From NCBI GenBank assembly GCA_035299485.1, contig DATGWM010000014.1, positions 160,370 through 224,369 on the forward strand: a stretch of 64,000 nt of DNA, written 5' to 3'. Below the pieces are notes generated by a model. That model saw nothing but the letters and a program-made list of their open reading frames with translations, made no database searches and was not told the DNA's origin. A program made the position numbers and the translations under genes. The stretch's first letter is position 1, and every line of letters starts with the position of its first letter. Shown here in pieces: positions 55,886 through 64,000 of the stretch. Origin of the DNA: Fluviicola sp. (GTDB taxonomy: Bacteria > Bacteroidota > Bacteroidia > Flavobacteriales_D > Crocinitomicaceae).

Positions 55886-56044
55886 TTTACTATTTCAACC
55901 TATAGTGGAGTGAACAATTTTGAAAGACAATTCGGAGAGTTTTATGGGAATTATCCGCTATTTCCTTTACAAATTACTAGTAAATATCCCATTGCCGAAT
56001 TAATAGAAGCTCAAGAACTTTGTAGAAATTAAAAAACAAATTTT

Positions 56045-56389
56045 ATGTCATTTACACCAAAAGCCGAGCTACTCTATAAAGATGGCTCAAACCCAAAACA
56101 TTACTGCATTGCAGCTTCATTTGTTGAAACGGCAAATTACGGATTCGTAACTGCCTCCGAAGTACAAGATCATCCAGAAGAAGAAGATGGATATCTCGTT
56201 ACATACACTGTTGGCGACAATTCAAGAGGGGGTGATGAAATGGATGCTGATCTTGGAACCATTACCTTGGTCACAAGCACAGGATTCGTTGACGTTGAAT
56301 TTTACGATGAGCAATCTCATTTTTTAGGTAAAAAGCGTATCCGTACTGAAGAAGCACAAAAAGATACTAGACCAATTGAAGAGCGCTAA
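56045..56389 (+). CDS. Small acidic hypothetical protein
   Basis: 114-aa ORF with an A-rich translation initiation region and its own terminator; no signal peptide; charged tail GKKRIRTEEAQKDTRPIEER. Confidence 0.7.
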   Translation: MSFTPKAELLYKDGSNPKHYCIAASFVETANYGFVTASEVQDHPEEEDGYLVTYTVGDNSRGGDEMDADLGTITLVTSTGFVDVEFYDEQSHFLGKKRIRTEEAQKDTRPIEER

Positions 56390-56397
56390 TTTAGTGC

Positions 56398-56430
56398 AGC
56401 AGCAGAATTAAAAAATTCTGCTGCTTTTTT
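56398..56430 (+). terminator. Terminator between the small gene and the kinase
   Basis: Perfect 12-bp stem AGCAGCAGAATT/AATTCTGCTGCT followed by TTTTT. Confidence 0.85.
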
Positions 56431-56461
56431 GTACTTTGTGATGCCTAAGCGCTATAGCACT

Positions 56462-58543
56462 ATGAAAATCGTATTATTATTTCTTTCATTGATATGTGGT
56501 TTTTGTTTCGGACAAGAGACAGATGAACTGTCTTCGAAATTCAAGCATACAAATCAAGATCGTTTAAAGATGGCTTATGCATCTGAGCTTGCATGGAAAT
56601 TGCGAGATCAAAATCCAGATTCATCACTCTTTTATGCAAAAATTGCTCTACAATTATCTAAAAAATTGGGCGACAAAAAAACAGAAGCGTATAGCCTTTC
56701 TGACATTGGAACTTATTACAAACACCAAGAGCACTATACAGAAGCTCAAAAGTATTTTAAGAAAAGCTTACGTATTCGAAAAACCATTGGCGAGAATAAC
56801 GATATTGCCAGTGGTTATAATCAATTAGGACTATTATTCCGTCAACAGGAACAATACGATTCCGCAGTAGTCTATTTTCGAAAAGGAATCGACCTACTAC
56901 CTCATGAAAAATCCACTTTAAAATCCAATTTATTAGATGGATACGGCATGAGCCTACTTAATTTGGGGCAGTACAAACATGCATTACACTATATTCAACA
57001 ATCGTTGAAAATTGCAGAAGAATTGGAAGATTCTCTTTCCATAGCCAAATCACATCAAAATCTTGGAGTAATATATGTGAAACAGGGAGTTGCCAAATTG
57101 GCCTTGACAGAATTCAAATCAGCGGAACAGCTTTTTTCGATATTGAAGAATCAAAATGGGCTTTTGGAATCAATCATAAATCAAGCTTCGATCAATCAGC
57201 AACTAGGAAAGATCATAAATGCTGACAAAATGTACCAAAAAGCGGAACTGCTTAGTATTAAACACGGATTTCAAGATAACCTTCCTACCATATGGTTCAA
57301 TCGAGCAGAATTATTTTTAGAAAGTGACCCAAAAAAATCCATTTATTTCTATAAGAAAGCCTTAAAAAATGCTACTTCGTATGAAAAGCCTTTACTTAAA
57401 ACCGAATGTTTACTAGGGCTGATGGACGCATCAATTCGAGCAGACCAATTAAATGCTACGAAACAATGGAAATTACAGTTAGAAGAACAACCTCAACTTA
57501 ATCGCACAGCCATAAGAAAAGATTTCCTCGAATTATGCGTAAAATATTATCGCAAATCAGGAGACCTTGAGTCAGCTTTCAGATATAGCCAGGATTTATT
57601 AAAGGTCCGAGATAGTTTAGATAAGATCGTACTAAACAACCTTGAAACACTCTCTCTTCTTGAAAAATCACGAAACAAGGAAAAAATTGCTCGGGAAGAA
57701 ATAAATCGGCTGAAAGTAATAAAACAATCAGAAGAAGATCAGTCTCAAATGTGGTTTTTAACAATGGGAATAATCATGATACTCCTAATCGTTTCATTAA
57801 TCACGTTTTTCTTGATTTATAAAATCAGATTGGATAATAAGAATGCTGTCCTCAGGGAACAAGAGTTACAGCAAGAAATGACCGATTTAATTCATGAATC
57901 AGACCTTCGTGTAATGGAGGAGTCATTGTTAGTTGAAGGTAAAACCCGCAAAAACATTGGAAAAGATTTACACGATAATTTAGGTAGCAAGTTAGCCGTT
58001 GTACAAATCATGTTGGATTCTTTCCGCAGAAAAACAGAAGAATCTCGAATGGATCTTCAAGAAAAACTAGTAAAAGCAATTCAACTAATAGAAGACTCCT
58101 GTAATGACCTTAGGACCATATCAAGAAACATGGTTAATACAGGGATAAGTGAAACCAGTTTAGCAGACAGTGTCGACACCCTATGCCGATTCATATCTGA
58201 AAATTCGCAAATAGAGATAGTCTTTCACTATGAAAATGATATTGTTTTACAAGAAATGCATTGGCGAAAGAACATTTTATCCACCATTTCTTTGCTTTTA
58301 CACAACATTATTAAACATTCAGATGCATCCAAAGCAGAAATCACTCTATTAGGTGATGAAACACAACTTTCTATCATAATCAAAGACAATGGTAAAGGTT
58401 TCGACACAAATAAACTAGACCAAGTTGAAGGTGTCGGACTGCGAAATGCGAGAGAAAGAGTCGAAATAATGAAAGGCACAATTCAAATGACATCCGAAAA
58501 AGGAAGTGGAACCAATATACTCATACAATTACCCTCAAAATGA
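56462..58543 (+). CDS. TPR-containing sensor histidine kinase (HisKA_3/NarX type)
   Basis: Signal sequence, multiple TPRs (IASGYNQLG, IAKSHQNLG), TM helix, GKDLHDNLGS H-box, NIIKHSDA, IKDNGKGF, GVGL, GSGT. Confidence 0.92.
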   Translation: MKIVLLFLSLICGFCFGQETDELSSKFKHTNQDRLKMAYASELAWKLRDQNPDSSLFYAKIALQLSKKLGDKKTEAYSLSDIGTYYKHQEHYTEAQKYFKKSLRIRKTIGENNDIASGYNQLGLLFRQQEQYDSAVVYFRKGIDLLPHEKSTLKSNLLDGYGMSLLNLGQYKHALHYIQQSLKIAEELEDSLSIAKSHQNLGVIYVKQGVAKLALTEFKSAEQLFSILKNQNGLLESIINQASINQQLGKIINADKMYQKAELLSIKHGFQDNLPTIWFNRAELFLESDPKKSIYFYKKALKNATSYEKPLLKTECLLGLMDASIRADQLNATKQWKLQLEEQPQLNRTAIRKDFLELCVKYYRKSGDLESAFRYSQDLLKVRDSLDKIVLNNLETLSLLEKSRNKEKIAREEINRLKVIKQSEEDQSQMWFLTMGIIMILLIVSLITFFLIYKIRLDNKNAVLREQELQQEMTDLIHESDLRVMEESLLVEGKTRKNIGKDLHDNLGSKLAVVQIMLDSFRRKTEESRMDLQEKLVKAIQLIEDSCNDLRTISRNMVNTGISETSLADSVDTLCRFISENSQIEIVFHYENDIVLQEMHWRKNILSTISLLLHNIIKHSDASKAEITLLGDETQLSIIIKDNGKGFDTNKLDQVEGVGLRNARERVEIMKGTIQMTSEKGSGTNILIQLPSK

Positions 58544-59214
58544 TTAAACAAAAACCCTCTGTATTTATAGCAGACGATCACCAGATCGTAATTGACGCCA
58601 TTCGTTCCGAACTAGAAGATTTCGGAGAATCACTTCATTATTTGGGGAGTGCTACAAACGGTAAAGATGTTATTGATGTACTGAACCAGAAAAAGATTGA
58701 CCTCTTGATACTTGACATTAGTATGCCAGAACCTGATGGTCTTGAAATACTTCAGTACATTAAAGAGAACGGTATCAGAGTAAAAGTGCTTGTGTTAACA
58801 ATGCACGATGATCTCGCTCATGTTTCTGCAATGATGCGTCATGGCGCACATGGCTACATACTCAAGAATGAAGGTGCGCGATACGTTGTTGATGCAGTTA
58901 GCCATATTCTCGCTGGCAACAACTATTTTCCTAATGAAATATTGCAAAAATTGGCTGATGGTTTTGCTTCTGACTACTTTTCTATAAGTGATACTCCTGA
59001 AGAAAAAATCCGGAAATCAATTTCTGACGATGATGCACAGGTATTGGAATTATTAACCCTTGAGTATACCTCTAAGGAGATTGCGGATAAGATGAATGTT
59101 ACTAAGAAAGCTATAGATGCACGATTGAAGAAATTACGTGATAAAACCGGAACAACATCTGAAAAAGGATTGGTGGCTTTTGCTGTTCGAAACGGTTTTT
59201 CAGCAAAAGGATAA
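58540..59214 (+). CDS. NarL/LuxR family response regulator
   Basis: IADDHQIV, LILDISMPEPDG, VLTMH, GAHGYILK, C-terminal HTH TSKEIADKM; ATGA overlap with the kinase. Confidence 0.93.
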   Translation: MIKQKPSVFIADDHQIVIDAIRSELEDFGESLHYLGSATNGKDVIDVLNQKKIDLLILDISMPEPDGLEILQYIKENGIRVKVLVLTMHDDLAHVSAMMRHGAHGYILKNEGARYVVDAVSHILAGNNYFPNEILQKLADGFASDYFSISDTPEEKIRKSISDDDAQVLELLTLEYTSKEIADKMNVTKKAIDARLKKLRDKTGTTSEKGLVAFAVRNGFSAKG

Positions 59215-59343
59215 TACAAGAATTTTAGTAAAAATCCCCTGAATCAATCTGCTTATTGAGTAAAAATACCAATAATTCATCATCTCATTTTTTATCATAG
59301 ACCGAGCCACTAACATTGTCTTGAAAATTTAAAAACCAAGTCA

Positions 59344-60297
59344 ATGTCAATGTATGAAAAAAGAAAAGCTCTTCTAATTGGAGTTAATGAATATGATTAT
59401 TACAATCGATTAAAAGGTTGTGAGAATGATGTTAGGATGATGGAAGAGGTCCTACAATGTCATGAGAAGGGAGATCCAAATTTCTCTATTTCCAAAGTTC
59501 TCAACGAGACTAACGATCACATAAAATCAGAAATCATCACACTTCTTAAAAGAGATGCAACGATGGCTCTTTTATACTTTTCTGGCCATGGAAACGTAAC
59601 TGATGAGGGTGGATTTATTTGTGGTCGAGACGTCTCAAAAGAAAACTCAGGAGTTTCGATGGATTGGATTATTGAGCAAATCAATAAATCTATTATTCCT
59701 GAAATTACTGTAATTCTTGATTGTTGCTTTGCTGGTGAAATAGCAAATGAAGAAACTGATGGTACTGTTTTCACAAGACTTAGAAAGGGTGTTACGATAC
59801 TTGCAGCGACCACAGAAAATGATACTGCTACAGAATTTTTGCGGAAAGGTGTATTCACTTCAATCCTTTATAACGGATTAAAAGGAGCGGCAAAGGACAT
59901 ATTGGGACATGTAACTGCTGTAAGTCTTTATAGCAACTCAGAATCTATACTTTCCCCATGGGAACAACGCCCTGTCTTTAAGTCATTTGTGAAGCAATTA
60001 ACACCCTTACGTTTTTGTCTACCAACGGTAAGAAAACGAATCCTTCGTCAAATGGTTCATGAACCATATTTTTCATCCAAAGAGAAATTAATTTCTCTTG
60101 ATTCCAAACTGTTAAAAGATGAATTCGGAACAATTGGCCAAGAAGAATTATACGCACTCGCTTCATTTGAAAAAGCTGGACTCCTAGAGTGTCCTGATAG
60201 AATCCCATTATTACAAGCAATTATTGAAAATAAAACCTGTGGATTATCTCCTTTCGGTAAACATGTTTGGGAGCTTTTCAGCAAAAGAAATATCTAA
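59344..60297 (+). CDS. Caspase-like (peptidase C14) protease
   Basis: RKALLIGVNEY, LKGCENDV, YFSGHG (His82), ILDCCFAG (Cys128), GVFT; about 80-aa C-terminal extension. Confidence 0.9.
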   Translation: MSMYEKRKALLIGVNEYDYYNRLKGCENDVRMMEEVLQCHEKGDPNFSISKVLNETNDHIKSEIITLLKRDATMALLYFSGHGNVTDEGGFICGRDVSKENSGVSMDWIIEQINKSIIPEITVILDCCFAGEIANEETDGTVFTRLRKGVTILAATTENDTATEFLRKGVFTSILYNGLKGAAKDILGHVTAVSLYSNSESILSPWEQRPVFKSFVKQLTPLRFCLPTVRKRILRQMVHEPYFSSKEKLISLDSKLLKDEFGTIGQEELYALASFEKAGLLECPDRIPLLQAIIENKTCGLSPFGKHVWELFSKRNI

Positions 60298-60316: not shown

Positions 60317-61330
60317 ATGAGCTCATACAGCAATAAAAGCACTTTACATGTACGAATTAAAAATTTTGTATCATGGATTGCTCCTCCAAAAGAAACTCGT
60401 GAGGCCATCAAAAAAAGATCCGACGAAGTAAGAGAGAAAATTAAAGCCGAAGCCGAAAAAGATGGAATAACCATTTCTCAAATGCCATATTCGGGCTCGT
60501 TTTCAACAAAGACTGGTTTAAGGCGCAATATGCGTGGAAATACGATTTTAGATGGTCAAGATGTTGACATACCATTTGTAGTTAAAAAAGATACTGAAAC
60601 AGAATTTGGTCCATTAATCAAACGATTTAAAAAGTATGCCCAGACTTGTTATCCAAACCATGAAATTGAAGAAACAAAAAGTTCCGTTAACATCGTATTC
60701 GAAAAAGACAATCTAACATTCGACATTGTTCCTATGTTCGAAGCAGATAAAGCTTCTTATCAAACATTAATTAGGGGCAACGGTGAGATAATTACAACCT
60801 CCATTGAAAAACATCGGGAATTTATTCGCAATCGTACTAAAGAAACAAAAGAATCTGATGGTATTGTAACATTCAATGACTGTATACGGTTACTGAAGTG
60901 GTGGAGAAGAGTAAAAGAAATTGAATGTGATGAAAACCTTTGCTTACCTAGTTTCTTAATCAATCTTCTCGGGGCACAAGCATATAACAATTGTAGTGAT
61001 GATACTACATACCCCCAGACATTAGCAAATTGGTTTTCATTCCTGGCAAGTACTGTCAGAAAAAAAGAAACTATTTGGTTTGACGACTATTACTCCAAAC
61101 CTGAACCTGACGAATATAAATCTTGGAATGTAATAGATCCAGTCATGCCTGGTAACAACATCGTCAAATCATGGCCAGGATATCAAGTCGATCAATTGGC
61201 AGATTGGCTACAAGAAGCTGCAGAAACTATGAACAGAGCAATTGTTGCTGACATGCAGGAACGTCACGCAGATAGCCTTGTCCATTTACAGCAATTATTC
61301 GGAACCATATTCTCTTCCCATTGCGATTAA
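60317..61330 (+). CDS. cdnC: CBASS CD-NTase, CdnC-like oligonucleotide cyclase
   Basis: SGSFSTKTGL, DVD, FDIVP catalytic motifs; TSIEKHREFI, RLLKWW, PSF, IDPV.P.NN match E. coli CdnC as I recall it. Confidence 0.9.
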   Translation: MSSYSNKSTLHVRIKNFVSWIAPPKETREAIKKRSDEVREKIKAEAEKDGITISQMPYSGSFSTKTGLRRNMRGNTILDGQDVDIPFVVKKDTETEFGPLIKRFKKYAQTCYPNHEIEETKSSVNIVFEKDNLTFDIVPMFEADKASYQTLIRGNGEIITTSIEKHREFIRNRTKETKESDGIVTFNDCIRLLKWWRRVKEIECDENLCLPSFLINLLGAQAYNNCSDDTTYPQTLANWFSFLASTVRKKETIWFDDYYSKPEPDEYKSWNVIDPVMPGNNIVKSWPGYQVDQLADWLQEAAETMNRAIVADMQERHADSLVHLQQLFGTIFSSHCD

Positions 61331-61346
61331 TCCTAATAAATAAATT

Positions 61347-61829
61347 ATGAGTGTATACACATTTAGCGGAACGGACAGTTATTCCGAGGCCGATGTAAAA
61401 GCCGTTATGCAAAATACCTATGAGGATATTATTGGGTTTGCGAATCGAAAGACGATAAGCTATGGTACAGCAGAATTGTGGATAGAAGAATTAACCTATG
61501 CTTTGAATAGAAAAATCGTCAAATTCTTTGAAGTCCAGTTGAAAAATCCTTCTGGTGAAATTTTCAAGAGTCATAGATATCATGTTGACTCCTATGGCTA
61601 TTTGTCCTCCGGATCATCATCCGGAGGAATAAACTACCATTCCTATCCTTCTGATACCACTGCTAGTTTATACATAGATTTTTTAGATAGTCTTTCCAAA
61701 AGCGATATCGATGAAATAATTAGAGATCGAGGTTGGGGAACAGGCTCTGCAATGAAAGGTAATGAGATTCACGACCGAAATTACGTAAGCAATAATTTGA
61801 GAATACAACGAACGGAAATAACAAAATAA
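61347..61829 (+). CDS. cap7: Bacterial HORMA domain protein
   Basis: 160 aa between the CD-NTase and the AAA ATPase; N-terminal YTFS.T.SYS and C-terminal DRNY...RIQRT resemble bacterial HORMA1. Confidence 0.8.
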   Translation: MSVYTFSGTDSYSEADVKAVMQNTYEDIIGFANRKTISYGTAELWIEELTYALNRKIVKFFEVQLKNPSGEIFKSHRYHVDSYGYLSSGSSSGGINYHSYPSDTTASLYIDFLDSLSKSDIDEIIRDRGWGTGSAMKGNEIHDRNYVSNNLRIQRTEITK

Positions 61830-61831
61830 CC

Positions 61832-62722
61832 ATGGAAGTTAAATTACAAGAACAGAAACATCCCAACAAAGCAGCGGAGTTAGCTTTTGATGAATTAATC
61901 GCTATTGACGGACAGAAAGAGATTTTACTTAATTCACTCGAACTGTTCTTCCATAAGGAGAAGATTGAACGATGGCGCCAACACCATCATTCAAGTGGAT
62001 TAAACTTCTTGAGTCACCTTAACAACGGAACTTCATTGATCATTTTATCCGGAGATGTTGGTTGCGGTAAGACAGCGCTTGCTCATTCCATTGGTACACC
62101 ACTTGGAAAACGAATTGATAAACGAATCACTGTTTTCGAAACACCGTCAAATATACGGGGAGCGGGTAGAGTCGGAGAAATATCGAATCGCATCACTGAT
62201 GCTTTTGAACAAGTCAAATCCAAATTAACATCCGACCAGACAGGAATTCTGATTATAGATGAGGCTGATGATCTTGCAACAGATCGTGATCAGAATCAGG
62301 CACATCATGAAGATCGCGCAGGACTTAATGTTCTGCTTAAACAGATCGATTTAATTGCACGAGAAAATGTTGCACTAGCCGTTATTCTGATAACGAACCG
62401 TCTTAAAGTACTAGATCCAGCTATTATACGTCGAGCCACTCAAATAATTGAGTTTGGAAGACCTGATGAAGCTGCAAGAAAATTGGTTTTCCAACATATG
62501 TTTAACGGTTCAGATTTGTCCGAAAAGGATTACGATGAACTTGTTAAAGCCAGCACTCATCCCAAAACACCTTATAGCTTTTCTGATCTTATTCAAAAGG
62601 TTGGAAGGCAATCATTATTTAGTGCGATTCAAAGTGATCAACCATTCGGTAAAGACATCTACCTGACAACGATAAAGAATACGAAACCCTCACCAATTCT
62701 GAAACAAGATGAAAACAGATAA
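61832..62722 (+). CDS. cap6: TRIP13/Pch2-like AAA+ ATPase
   Basis: GDVGCGKT Walker A, RGAGRVGE, IIDEADDL Walker B, HHEDR, TNRL.VLDPAI.RR. Confidence 0.92.
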   Translation: MEVKLQEQKHPNKAAELAFDELIAIDGQKEILLNSLELFFHKEKIERWRQHHHSSGLNFLSHLNNGTSLIILSGDVGCGKTALAHSIGTPLGKRIDKRITVFETPSNIRGAGRVGEISNRITDAFEQVKSKLTSDQTGILIIDEADDLATDRDQNQAHHEDRAGLNVLLKQIDLIARENVALAVILITNRLKVLDPAIIRRATQIIEFGRPDEAARKLVFQHMFNGSDLSEKDYDELVKASTHPKTPYSFSDLIQKVGRQSLFSAIQSDQPFGKDIYLTTIKNTKPSPILKQDENR

Positions 62723-64000
62723 GTCAACAATTGTCATCGCTCACTACGGCTTGGACAGAAGAATCACAAGAGAAGAATGTCTGGCGACTCTAGCACCAGG
62801 AGAAAAAGAGGGAGCTATTTTCATCGATTTTGAAGCTGGTAATGCTAAGCTCAGCGAACTTTATGAGTTATCGTTTGATAATATAGCACTATTCCAACAG
62901 CGCAAATTTGCTGAATTAGTGAAGCCTAAGCTAGATGAGTATCCGGATGCAAGAATTGCATATTTTGGATATGTTCCAATCCCTATTGCATTTCACTTCG
63001 GTTACCTACTTGGCAATACGCATCCCTACACAATTTACCAGCTCCACCATAAAACCAATAAGTGGTATAAGGAAACTCAAAAGCCATCCGAAGACTATGT
63101 GTTTTCAATACAACCATTACTACTCCCGACTGAAAATCAAAAAGGAAAAGGTGAGGTTGTTATCCGTGTGGGAACTTCTTTCGAAATTGACACACAGTCA
63201 ACGTATGAAGTTATTTCCAATCCTGAAAACGAATTTGACATTAGCCTAACCCAACCGCATGTAGACTCCTTATATGATCAGAAGAACATATCAGATGTAG
63301 TTGAAGCCTTTCAGGAGGTTTTAAATGCATATGCGAATAAATTGAGTGACCGGGAGAAAATTCATTTGTTTATTGCCTCTTCGTGTGGACTGCCATTTGC
63401 TTTAGGGACCAGGATTAATCCGAACATTTATCCATATATACAGACTTATCAATTTAGCAGAAATGAATCACCAAAATATAAAGAGGCTGTTCTAGTTACA
63501 AAGGAAGTCGATGATCGTATTATTCTTTCCGAAAGCGATCGACTGATTGCAAAAGGCATCCGGGACAAATGGTATGACCAGCTGGAAAACGGATTGAAGC
63601 CATTTATAGAGACAATCGCAGGGAAAAAATCGGACAATTGGTTACAAATGCTATGTACTGACGAAGAGTACCAAACCGTCAGTCAACATCTATGTCACCC
63701 TTGGAATTCCGTTACGGATATAAACAAAACCAGTCTTAAACATGATTCCATTGACACAGAAAGAGTGGATGTTGATGATAGCTTTGAATACATTGAGAAA
63801 ACAAATACTTGGCTTCTCGATGATGGATTTTTGTTTGGACTGAGCAATAGACTCAACAAAAAGCCAGAAACGGATGTTATGCAGGCAGCTCGATTGTTTT
63901 TCTTCCATGAGGCCCTTCACTACAGCATTGAAGGACATCGATTAACTAGAGAAATCGCCAACGGTATTGGCCAATTTCCAAAGGTTATAGAAGAAGCCGA
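62709..64000 (+). CDS. SAVED domain fused to a C-terminal HExxH putative metallopeptidase (partial, runs off right edge)
   Basis: Not in ORF track; 430 codons without a stop. SAVED motifs IAYFGYVPIPIAFHFGYLL and IHLFIASSCGLPFALGTRIN; FFFHEALHY (HEALH at 63906-63920) followed by KVIEEAD. Confidence 0.85.
   Translation, partial: MKTDKSTIVIAHYGLDRRITREECLATLAPGEKEGAIFIDFEAGNAKLSELYELSFDNIALFQQRKFAELVKPKLDEYPDARIAYFGYVPIPIAFHFGYLLGNTHPYTIYQLHHKTNKWYKETQKPSEDYVFSIQPLLLPTENQKGKGEVVIRVGTSFEIDTQSTYEVISNPENEFDISLTQPHVDSLYDQKNISDVVEAFQEVLNAYANKLSDREKIHLFIASSCGLPFALGTRINPNIYPYIQTYQFSRNESPKYKEAVLVTKEVDDRIILSESDRLIAKGIRDKWYDQLENGLKPFIETIAGKKSDNWLQMLCTDEEYQTVSQHLCHPWNSVTDINKTSLKHDSIDTERVDVDDSFEYIEKTNTWLLDDGFLFGLSNRLNKKPETDVMQAARLFFFHEALHYSIEGHRLTREIANGIGQFPKVIEEA

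What the first reader, a model, noticed from the sequence alone, without database searches (positions are those of the whole stretch)
59344..60297. Caspase-like protease at the head of CBASS, resembling TIR-associated caspases but with no TIR gene
The His82/Cys128 dyad is intact and the stop lies 19 nt before the CD-NTase start. From memory, segments such as CH..GDPNF, GAAKDILGHVT, PWEQRPVFK and the C-terminal KTCGLSPFGKH resemble the caspase family found beside TIR genes (type IV Thoeris, activated by a TIR-made ADP-ribose derivative). No TIR gene is present in the window. The protease may have been rewired to a CD-NTase product or to proteolytic activation.
Basis: partly seen in the sequence, partly recalled or inferred. 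Interest (0 to 1): 0.72.

Follow-up and report, generated by a model that had tools for sequence, protein, structure and literature searches.

The report
Thoeris-type caspase rewired to CBASS
A caspase-like protease normally switched on by a TIR enzyme in one bacterial anti-phage system (type IV Thoeris) here has no TIR partner and instead sits, conserved and intact, in front of a different alarm system (CBASS), so the same killing protease seems to have been plugged into a second signalling pathway.

Summary
Window 59344-60297 (+) encodes a 317-aa C14 caspase with an intact His82/Cys128 dyad. Its stop lies 19 nt before a type III CBASS: CD-NTase, HORMA, TRIP13 and a SAVED-HExxH effector.

The recalled likeness to type IV Thoeris caspases is real:
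- It aligns end to end (33% identity, Cys128 on Cys129) with a caspase beside a TIR that is 63% identical to the tested PsTIR.
- About 60 of 80 distant relatives sit beside such TIR genes.

The closer relatives (39-89% identity) form one TIR-less clade. Ten loci including the window carry a SAVED protein of this family beside the caspase; eight also show CD-NTase, HORMA and TRIP13. dN/dS is 0.06. The changes that separate the two clades are enriched in the C-terminal putative sensor domain.

Two caveats apply. The window's CBASS is about 77% identical to cassettes that work without any caspase. The most constant neighbour of the caspase is an upstream TPR sensor kinase and LuxR regulator, which elsewhere precedes TIR, 8xMP or kinase modules.

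Best reading: a second-tier protease effector activated through the SAVED protein. This is inferred, not shown. It is a new variant of known kinds (type IV Thoeris; the SAVED-CHAT to PCaspase cascade).

The parts
55979..55990 (+). One-mismatch copy (AGTAAATATCCC) of the 12-nt box found twice upstream of the caspase. It lies 55 nt before the 114-aa ORF.
   Evidence: 6 matches at up to 1 mismatch in the window, against 0.89 expected. A role as a regulator site is inferred.
56045..56389 (+). 114-aa ORF of unknown function. It is conserved at the head of the caspase loci and is followed by a terminator-like hairpin at 56398-56425.
   Evidence: It has no Pfam hit. Homologues (27-79% identity) hold the same position in L083, L085, L086, L087 and L090.
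56429..58543 (+). Sensor histidine kinase with a signal peptide or TM segment, TPR repeats, a second TM segment, and HisKA_3 and HATPase_c domains.
   Evidence: Pfam. The same gene precedes the caspase in all complete CBASS-linked loci and in about 26 TIR-linked or other loci.
58540..59214 (+). LuxR/GerE-type response regulator. Its start overlaps the kinase stop by 4 nt.
   Evidence: Pfam Response_reg and GerE. It is 83-86% identical in L083 and L090.
59227..59270 (+). Two exact copies of AGTAAAAATMCC, 32 nt apart, in the 129-nt spacer between the regulator and the caspase. This is a candidate regulator-binding site and promoter region.
   Evidence: Related TAGGG-N4-CCCTA-like boxes occur in the same spacer of L083, L085, L086 and L103. 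No terminator-like site lies in the spacer. Function is inferred.
59344..60297 (+). Caspase-like C14 protease of the type IV Thoeris effector family. The caspase domain spans about 1-224 (His82, Cys128) and the C-terminal domain about 225-317.
   Evidence: dN/dS is 0.06 against L090.
60317..61330 (+). CD-NTase (CBASS oligonucleotide cyclase).
   Evidence: NCBIfam CBASS_cyclase_a scores 266.5 bits against a cut-off of 200. PADLOC Cyclase E 4.8e-121.
61347..61829 (+). Bacterial HORMA protein.
   Evidence: Pfam bacHORMA_1, E 2.1e-20.
61832..62722 (+). TRIP13-like AAA+ ATPase.
   Evidence: PADLOC TRIP13, E 1.7e-91. Pfam AAA.
62709..64000 (+). SAVED sensor fused to a C-terminal HExxH domain, 596 aa in all. 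The gene overlaps the TRIP13 stop by 14 nt and runs 500 nt past the window end (L002:9079-10869).
   Evidence: Pfam SAVED E 2e-36. PADLOC 'Effector Peptidase' PDLC00754 E 3e-127. H400-E401-x-x-H404 and A430-DYQAD are conserved.

Best explanation
The gene encodes an active caspase-like protease of the type IV Thoeris effector family: a caspase domain plus a C-terminal domain of about 95 aa. In one Bacteroidota lineage this protein lost its TIR signal generator. It became the fixed companion of CBASS operons whose sensor-effector is a SAVED-HExxH protein.

Proposed course of events:
1. The upstream TPR kinase and LuxR regulator set transcription of the operon (inferred).
2. On infection, HORMA and the CD-NTase make a cyclic oligonucleotide (established for type III CBASS).
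3. The SAVED protein binds the signal and assembles (established for other SAVED effectors).
4. The SAVED protein then switches on the caspase (inferred). It could do so by cutting it, as SAVED-CHAT cuts PCaspase. It could instead hold caspase molecules together.
5. The caspase degrades cell proteins after arginine, as PsCaspase does, and aborts the infection (by analogy).
For: Family membership:
- Full-length homology to TIR-linked caspases.
- The neighbouring TIRs match PsTIR and EcTIR at E 2e-43 and 3e-42.

Conserved pairing:
- In ten loci including the window (window, L090, L083/84, L085, L086, L087, L089, L060, L104) a caspase at 39-86% identity sits beside a SAVED protein of this family and no TIR.
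- In five of them the two genes are 4-17 nt apart.
- In L083/84 no CD-NTase, HORMA or TRIP13 lies between the pair and a neighbouring type II CBASS. L104 shows none before its contig ends.

One origin:
- The CBASS-linked caspases form one clade (SH-aLRT 97). Its sister is a TIR-linked, kinase-linked caspase.

Selection and operon structure:
- dN/dS is 0.06-0.18 and the dyad is invariant.
- The operon is tight, with gaps of 19, 16 and 2 nt and a 14-nt overlap, and has no terminator-like site.

Signs of a changed input:
- 13 of 23 clade-discriminating positions fall in the C-terminal 93 residues (binomial p = 0.006). Rousset et al. propose this domain as the N7-cADPR sensor.
- The SAVED partners in L104 (RVALL) and L089 (SEMLH) have lost the canonical HExxH, so there the caspase would be the only protease.

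Precedent:
- SAVED-CHAT activates PCaspase.
Against:
- The window's whole CBASS cassette is 66-78% identical to a caspase-less cassette in a Flavobacterium (L092). L093 and L094 also lack a caspase, so this SAVED-HExxH effector can act alone.
- The cassette behind the caspase has been swapped. L090 shares the caspase (86%) and the SAVED protein (76%) with the window, but its CD-NTase, HORMA and TRIP13 are only 22-41% identical. That argues against tight protein-protein co-evolution.
- The same kinase-regulator-caspase unit also precedes TIR, 8xMP membrane proteins, or a LytTR/VWA/PP2C/kinase set. Adjacency could reflect a shared insertion site.
- The HExxH domain has no Pfam or PDB relative, so its protease activity is itself an inference.
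Confidence: 0.45

Rival explanations
1. Direct ligand rewiring. The C-terminal domain of the caspase now binds the CD-NTase product itself, as PsCaspase binds N7-cADPR. The caspase and the SAVED-HExxH protein would then be two parallel effectors of one signal.
For: - The family is known to be switched on by a small nucleotide, probably through the C-terminal domain.
- Clade-specific changes are enriched in that domain.
- In four loci the caspase gene directly precedes the CD-NTase gene.
Against: - The cyclase has been swapped or is missing while the caspase stays. L090's CD-NTase is 41% identical. L083/84 has only a neighbouring type II CD-NTase. L104 shows none on its contig.
- The constant neighbour is the SAVED protein, not the cyclase.
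- In a Pycsar plus type IV Thoeris operon no cross-activation was seen.
- A cyclic tri- or dinucleotide is much larger than N7-cADPR and chemically unlike it (general knowledge).
Confidence: 0.2
2. Independent neighbour. The TPR kinase, LuxR regulator and caspase form their own unit. The site behind it is a hot spot where different defence cassettes land. The caspase would be controlled by something other than CBASS, or act in regulation as CapP does.
For: - The kinase-regulator pair accompanies the caspase in TIR, CBASS, 8xMP and LytTR/VWA/PP2C/kinase contexts.
- The window's CBASS belongs to a lineage that elsewhere carries CapW or CapH/CapP-like regulators in place of the kinase, regulator and caspase.
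- The cassette is a mosaic.
Against: - A Thoeris-type effector with no activator would be useless, yet it is kept at dN/dS 0.06.
- All sampled members of the TIR-less clade have a SAVED protein of one family next to them, across 39-86% caspase identity. Gaps are often 4-17 nt, which suggests coupled translation.
- One switch of partner explains the tree.
Confidence: 0.2
3. Remote TIR control. The caspase still answers to N7-cADPR or a similar signal made by a TIR protein encoded elsewhere in the genome.
For: The genome has TIR_2 domains on contigs C3, C4 and C10. Two of them weakly match the HMM of caspase-adjacent TIRs (E 3e-10 and 5e-9).
Against: - Those proteins are 339 and 1820 aa with several domains, not the roughly 125-aa ThsB-like type, and none is linked to the caspase.
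- The published definition of the system needs the TIR within one gene of the caspase.
- The whole clade lacks TIR neighbours.
- The sensor domain has diverged.
Confidence: 0.07
4. Decaying relic of a type IV Thoeris system that lost its TIR.
For: A TIR is absent.
Against: - The frame is intact and the dyad is invariant.
- dN/dS is 0.06-0.18 at dS above 1.
- The clade spans sequences down to 39% identity, all full length.
Confidence: 0.03

Closest known systems
Type IV Thoeris caspase effector (PsCaspase and EcCaspase; Rousset et al., bioRxiv 10.1101/2024.10.24.620036, Science 2025)
   Same: - Same protein family over the full length: about 317 aa, a caspase domain plus a C-terminal domain of unknown fold.
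- The catalytic Cys is at the same place (C128 here, C129 there).
- 33% identity to an E. coli plasmid homologue whose TIR is 63% identical to PsTIR.
- Shared motifs include WEQRPVFK and CxL[ST]xxG.
   Different: - No TIR gene within one gene, or anywhere in the window.
- It belongs to a separate TIR-less clade.
- The C-terminal domain carries most of the clade-specific changes, and the loop after the catalytic Cys is acidic instead of Gly/Ser-rich.
- It is placed at the head of a CBASS operon.
- Activation by N7-cADPR is untested and unlikely.
SAVED-CHAT to PCaspase proteolytic cascade (Steens et al., bioRxiv 10.1101/2023.06.23.546230, Science 2024)
   Same: - A SAVED sensor fused to a protease-like domain, plus a separate caspase-like protease, in one cluster.
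- That paper notes versions linked to a CD-NTase, some in Bacteroidota.
- It is the best mechanistic precedent for activation of a caspase by a SAVED protein.
   Different: - The SAVED partner here carries an HExxH domain with no detectable relation to CHAT.
- There are no PCi, PCc-sigma or PCk genes.
- Whether the caspase is related to PCaspase beyond the C14 fold was not tested.
- The signal comes from a type III CBASS rather than from Cas10.
Type III CBASS with a SAVED effector (PADLOC 'Effector: Peptidase' PDLC00754)
   Same: CD-NTase, HORMA, TRIP13 and the SAVED-HExxH protein are all present and typical. They are 66-78% identical to a caspase-less Flavobacterium cassette.
   Different: - An extra caspase gene sits 19 nt upstream.
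- A two-component system stands where relatives have CapW or CapH/CapP-like regulators.
DdvA-DdvS control of a CBASS and CRISPR island in Myxococcus (PMC11506125)
   Same: An envelope-spanning TPR sensor sits upstream of, and presumably controls, nucleotide-signalling defence operons.
   Different: Here it is a histidine kinase and LuxR regulator pair, not an anti-sigma and ECF sigma pair. Control is only inferred from position and from repeated boxes in the spacer.

Membership tests
Peptidase C14 (caspase/metacaspase/paracaspase fold) | Match to the family profile above the curated cut-off | tested here: met
   PF00656 scores 64.9 bits against a cut-off of 21.4.
Peptidase C14 (caspase/metacaspase/paracaspase fold) | His-Cys catalytic dyad in the conserved GHG and DxCxxG contexts | tested here: met
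   H82 and C128 are invariant in 27 homologues.
Peptidase C14 (caspase/metacaspase/paracaspase fold) | Caspase-hemoglobinase fold | tested here: met
   The AF2 model has pLDDT 91.6. Foldseek matches MALT1 and caspases at E 8e-14, TM about 0.55-0.7.
Type IV Thoeris caspase effector protein family | Full-length homology, including the C-terminal domain, to caspases of published or TIR-adjacent systems | tested here: met
   33% identity over 317 aa, E 3e-52, to the caspase of E. coli pCREC-591_1, which sits next to a TIR 63% identical to PsTIR. 35-38% identity to the caspases of L004 and L009, whose genomes are in Table S1 of Rousset et al..
Type IV Thoeris caspase effector protein family | Match to the DefenseFinder profile Thoeris_IV__ThsA_Casp4 | not testable with these tools
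   That profile is not in the libraries on hand. PADLOC 2.0.0 predates the system and gives only a generic 'caspase' hit.
Type IV Thoeris system | A ThsB-like or TIR_2 gene within one gene of the caspase (the MacSyFinder rule of Rousset et al.) | tested here: not met
   None of the domain-scanned ORFs around the locus is a TIR. The genome's TIR matches lie on contigs C3, C4 and C10.
Type IV Thoeris system | Activation of the protease by N7-cADPR | not testable with these tools
   This needs biochemistry.
Type III CBASS | CD-NTase plus HORMA plus TRIP13 plus an effector in one operon | tested here: met
   The genes are contiguous from 60317 to L002:10869.
SAVED-CHAT/PCaspase cascade | SAVED fused to a CHAT protease | tested here: not met
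   The C-terminal domain has HExxH and no CHAT or C14 match. The PADLOC SAVED_CHAT hit covers only the SAVED part.
SAVED-CHAT/PCaspase cascade | A separate caspase-like protease encoded in the same cluster | tested here: met
   The caspase gene lies in the same operon, and is directly adjacent to the SAVED gene in five related loci.
SAVED-CHAT/PCaspase cascade | Cleavage and activation of the caspase by the ligand-bound SAVED protease | not testable with these tools
   This needs biochemistry. No complex prediction was available.

The most novel reading that the evidence does not exclude
The SAVED protein acts as a cyclic-nucleotide-triggered platform, like an inflammasome. On binding the signal it assembles, as other SAVED effectors do. 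It recruits the caspase through its C-terminal domain and activates it by induced proximity, so the HExxH site is dispensable. This would explain why two caspase-linked SAVED partners (L104 and L089) have lost the HExxH motif while keeping the rest of the domain. It would also mean that one caspase family can be driven either by a TIR-made small molecule or by a protein scaffold.
Probability: 0.15. Interest if true: 0.85.

Novelty: new variant of a known kind. Interest (0 to 1): 0.62.

Why it matters
[quoted passage not shown] This locus and its nine relatives give a concrete, clonable case. A protease family whose activator is known (N7-cADPR from a TIR) has changed partner to a CD-NTase/SAVED pathway, apparently once.

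That makes three questions directly testable:
- How do effector modules move between nucleotide-signalling immune systems?
- Do bacterial caspases work as second-tier executioners behind another sensor-protease?
- What does the unstudied SAVED-HExxH effector do? Its family holds 396 clusters at 50% identity.

The linked TPR kinase and LuxR regulator also point to a two-component type of control of abortive-infection operons. The CBASS regulators met in the relatives and papers read here are CapW, CapH/CapP and CapK/CapS, not two-component systems.

Tried and rejected
- The metagenome scan with the caspase gave one locus only, L090.
- A search of 400 genomes of the phylum for the SAVED-HExxH protein found only the window's own genome, so the system is rare.
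- The full-length SAVED model matched only SAVED domains in Foldseek. The C-terminal domain alone had no Pfam hit at E up to 10 and no PDB sequence hit. Its 'peptidase' label rests on HExxH conservation alone (138 of 147 representatives).
- No solved structure of a type IV Thoeris caspase or of PCaspase was found. Pocket residues therefore could not be compared.
- Table S2 of Rousset et al. is cut in the stored copy. PsCaspase itself could not be aligned beyond its first residues (MRKALVVGI). An E. coli plasmid homologue was used instead.
- The paper on the TadIV-1 sponge gives no caspase pocket residues.
- The sigma-70 promoter scan is uninformative: 24 sites found against 27 expected, and Bacteroidota promoters differ.
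- I considered that the caspase is a CapP-like regulatory protease. I rate this low because its TIR-linked relatives are proven effectors.

Full report
**1. What is there**

Window 59344-60297 (+) is an ATG-started ORF of 317 aa. Evidence that it is a caspase-like protease:
- It matches Pfam Peptidase_C14 at 64.9 bits against a cut-off of 21.4.
- It has His82 in YFSGHG and Cys128 in ILDCCFAG. Both are invariant in an alignment of 27 homologues.
- An AlphaFold2 model (mean pLDDT 91.6) shows a caspase domain followed by a compact C-terminal domain from about residue 225.
- Foldseek puts the MALT1 paracaspase and animal caspases on top (E 8e-14).

The gene is the first of a tight co-oriented row:

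| Gene | Coordinates | Junction with the previous gene |
|---|---|---|
| Caspase | 59344-60297 | - |
| CD-NTase | 60317-61330 | 19-nt gap |
| HORMA | 61347-61829 | 16-nt gap |
| TRIP13 | 61832-62722 | 2-nt gap |
| SAVED protein | from 62709 | 14-nt overlap |

The window cuts the SAVED gene. In the genome it is 596 aa (L002:9079-10869). It consists of an N-terminal SAVED domain and a C-terminal domain of about 330 aa with H400-E-A-L-H404 and an invariant ADYQAD motif. No terminator-like hairpin lies inside the row.

Surroundings:
- G+C drops from 0.49 to about 0.35 at about 55.5 kb, so the region is an island.
- A complete type II CBASS follows about 760 nt after the SAVED gene. It has a CD-NTase, Cap2, Cap3 and an HNH-SAVED Cap5.
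- Upstream lie a 114-aa ORF with its own terminator, a TPR/HisKA_3 sensor kinase (56429-58543) and a LuxR-type response regulator (58540-59214).

**2. Is it a Thoeris-type caspase?**

Yes, as a protein.
- A scan of one genome per species returned 80 loci with relatives at 29-47% identity.
- Clustering their neighbours gave one dominant family: a protein of about 130 aa directly beside the caspase in 48 loci. Pfam calls it ThsB_TIR. A TIR_2 family occurs in 10 more loci.
- With an HMM screen, 60 of the 80 loci have a TIR within 2.5 kb. Pfam adds L004 and L005.
- The TIR sequences that Rousset et al. cloned (PsTIR, and EcTIR in part) match my neighbour-TIR HMM at E 2e-43 and 3e-42. PsTIR is up to 74% identical to individual neighbours.
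- Two of my loci come from genomes listed in their Table S1 as type IV Thoeris: Kordia jejudonensis SSK3-3 (L004) and Alicyclobacillus acidiphilus NBRC 100859 (L009).
- On E. coli plasmid pCREC-591_1, NCBI annotates a 124-aa TIR protein (63% identical to PsTIR) followed by a 317-aa caspase family protein. The window protein aligns with that caspase end to end (33% identity, E 3e-52). Cys128 falls on Cys129, the residue mutated in PsCaspase.

Rousset et al. propose that domain as the N7-cADPR sensor.

As a system it fails the published rule of a TIR within one gene. None of the domain-scanned ORFs around the locus is a TIR. The genome's TIR_2 matches lie on contigs C3, C4 and C10, in proteins of 269-1820 aa. 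This is the only member of the caspase family in the genome.

**3. Is the CBASS pairing more than chance?**

I retrieved contexts for closer homologues.
- L085 (57% identity), L089 (39%) and L090 (86%) repeat the window's order.
- L086 (49%), L087 (45%) and L060 (47%) have caspase, SAVED, CD-NTase, HORMA, TRIP13.
- L083/84 (62%) has caspase and SAVED only, followed by a type II CBASS.
- L104 (41%) has caspase and SAVED before the contig ends.
- In five of these loci the caspase and SAVED genes are 4-17 nt apart.

On a maximum-likelihood tree of 87 caspases the CBASS-linked ones form one clade (SH-aLRT 97). Its sister is L088, a caspase with the same kinase-regulator pair and a TIR_2 gene. All other TIR-linked sequences lie outside. 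With database homologues added, the clade holds 40 sequences.

The gene is under purifying selection. dN/dS is 0.06 against L090, 0.18 against L083 and 0.11 for L086 against L087, at dS above 1.

Of 23 positions that separate the two clades, 13 lie in the last 93 residues (p = 0.006). The loop after the catalytic Cys also differs. It is Gly/Ser-rich in TIR-linked proteins. In the CBASS clade it is acidic and variable in length, and ends in a conserved LRKG.

These data fit a single change of activating input followed by long retention.

**4. What complicates the picture**

(a) The SAVED-HExxH protein does not need a caspase.
- Three homologues at 63-76% identity sit in CBASS operons without one. 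L092 and L094 are type III. L093 has a CD-NTase and an E2 protein.
- They are preceded by a WYL (CapW-like) gene, or by a divergent Peptidase_M78 gene with a small ORF beside it, which I take to be CapH/CapP-like.

(b) The cassette is a mosaic.

| Compared with the window | Caspase | SAVED | CD-NTase | HORMA | TRIP13 |
|---|---|---|---|---|---|
| L092 (no caspase) | absent | 76% | 77% | 66% | 78% |
| L090 | 86% | 76% | 41% | 22% | 38% |
| Other caspase-linked loci | 39-62% | 28-35% | 40-44% | 24-33% | 42-51% |

- On the SAVED tree the window and L090 nest inside the tight, mostly caspase-less clade. The other caspase-linked SAVED proteins are deep, long branches.
- The deep lineages were found through the caspase, so their caspase linkage is partly a sampling effect.

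(c) The steadiest neighbour of the caspase is the TPR kinase and LuxR pair.
- It is present in every CBASS-linked locus that is not cut at the caspase end, and in about 26 of the others.
- Behind this kinase-regulator-caspase unit one finds TIR, 8xMP membrane proteins (L010, L011, L059), or LytTR, VWA, PP2C and Ser/Thr kinase genes (L103).

(d) The HExxH domain has no relative in Pfam or the PDB.
- A profile search of 1.84 billion representatives finds 396 clusters. Most are about 550-650 aa. Of ten odd-length members scanned against Pfam, five had SAVED and the others had no significant domain.
- HExxH is intact in 138 of 147.
- Two caspase-linked members lack it: L104 has RVALL and L089 has SEMLH.

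**5. Mechanism**

Shown by sequence:
- an intact Thoeris-family caspase;
- a complete type III CBASS;
- operon-like packing;
- a conserved, single-origin pairing of the caspase with SAVED proteins of one family.

Known from the families:
- HORMA, TRIP13 and the CD-NTase make a cyclic oligonucleotide on infection.
- SAVED domains bind it and drive assembly.
- PsCaspase and PCaspase cut many proteins after Arg.

Inferred: the caspase is a second-tier effector switched on through the SAVED protein, either by cleavage or by recruitment. I favour this over direct binding of the cyclic nucleotide. The SAVED protein is the constant neighbour, while the cyclase is swapped or absent.

The independent-neighbour reading stays serious because of points (a) to (c). 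It must, however, explain why an effector without an activator is kept at dN/dS 0.06 across a clade in which every sampled locus has this SAVED family next door.

**6. Regulation (in passing)**

The 129-nt spacer before the caspase holds two exact copies of AGTAAAAATMCC, 32 nt apart. A one-mismatch copy lies 55 nt before the 114-aa ORF. The window has 6 such matches against 0.89 expected. The same spacer in L083, L085, L086 and L103 has TAGGG-N4-CCCTA-like boxes. These are candidate sites for the LuxR regulator.

**7. Verdict**

In the literature I could search, caspases beside CBASS are mentioned only as predictions of unknown role. The only worked-out cascade uses SAVED-CHAT. This locus is therefore a new variant of known kinds, of moderate to high interest and easy to test.

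Earlier notes of this scan on the SAVED-HExxH gene and on the two-component pair agree with what I found independently.

Noticed in passing
L002:11627-15990 (about 1.3-5.6 kb beyond the window's end): A complete type II CBASS follows about 760 nt after the SAVED gene: a CD-NTase (341 aa), a Cap2 E1/E2 protein (575 aa), a Cap3 JAB protein (166 aa) and an HNH-SAVED Cap5 (371 aa). The same pair of systems is adjacent in L083/84, where the first system is reduced to caspase plus SAVED.
   Followed up: partly
window 59227-59238, 59259-59270 and 55979-55990: A 12-nt box, AGTAAAAATMCC, occurs twice exactly in the regulator-caspase spacer and once, with one mismatch, upstream of the 114-aa ORF. The window has 6 matches against 0.89 expected. 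TAGGG-N4-CCCTA-like boxes sit in the same spacer of related loci. These are candidate LuxR-regulator operators.
   Followed up: partly
L010:9023-9496, L011:8982-9488, L059:8100-8528; L103:10012-15663: The same TPR kinase, LuxR regulator and caspase unit is followed in some Bacteroidota by an 8xMP octameric membrane protein (PF24838) with no TIR. In L103 it is followed by LytTR, VWA, PP2C and Ser/Thr kinase genes. These look like further undescribed partner sets for this caspase family.
   Followed up: partly
L104:9981-11756 and L089:12407-14188: Two caspase-linked SAVED partners have lost the canonical HExxH (RVALL and SEMLH) but keep the DYxAD motif and the rest of the domain. Across 147 cluster representatives, 9 lack HExxH.
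   Followed up: partly
L090 (compost metagenome contig RCUH01000001.1) against the window: The operon is a mosaic. The caspase (86%), regulator (86%) and SAVED protein (76%) are close to the window's, but CD-NTase, HORMA and TRIP13 are only 41, 22 and 38% identical. This implies recombination inside the operon.
   Followed up: partly
L092:5530-6525; L093:5280-6402; L094:4692-5820: Caspase-less relatives of this CBASS carry other genes where the window has the kinase, regulator and caspase. L092 has a WYL/WCX (CapW-like) gene. L093 and L094 have a divergent Peptidase_M78 gene with a small ORF, which looks CapH/CapP-like.
   Followed up: no
window 56045-56389: A 114-aa ORF with no Pfam match and its own strong terminator (56398-56425) is conserved at the head of the caspase loci (27-79% identity in five loci). 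Its function is unknown.
   Followed up: no
genome contig C10:189000-194459 (-): An open frame of 1820 aa carries three TIR_2 matches. It is the strongest TIR hit in the genome (E 9e-27) and is unlinked to the caspase.
   Followed up: no
window about 55,500: G+C falls from 0.49 to 0.34-0.40 and stays low to the window end. This marks the left edge of the defence island.
   Followed up: no
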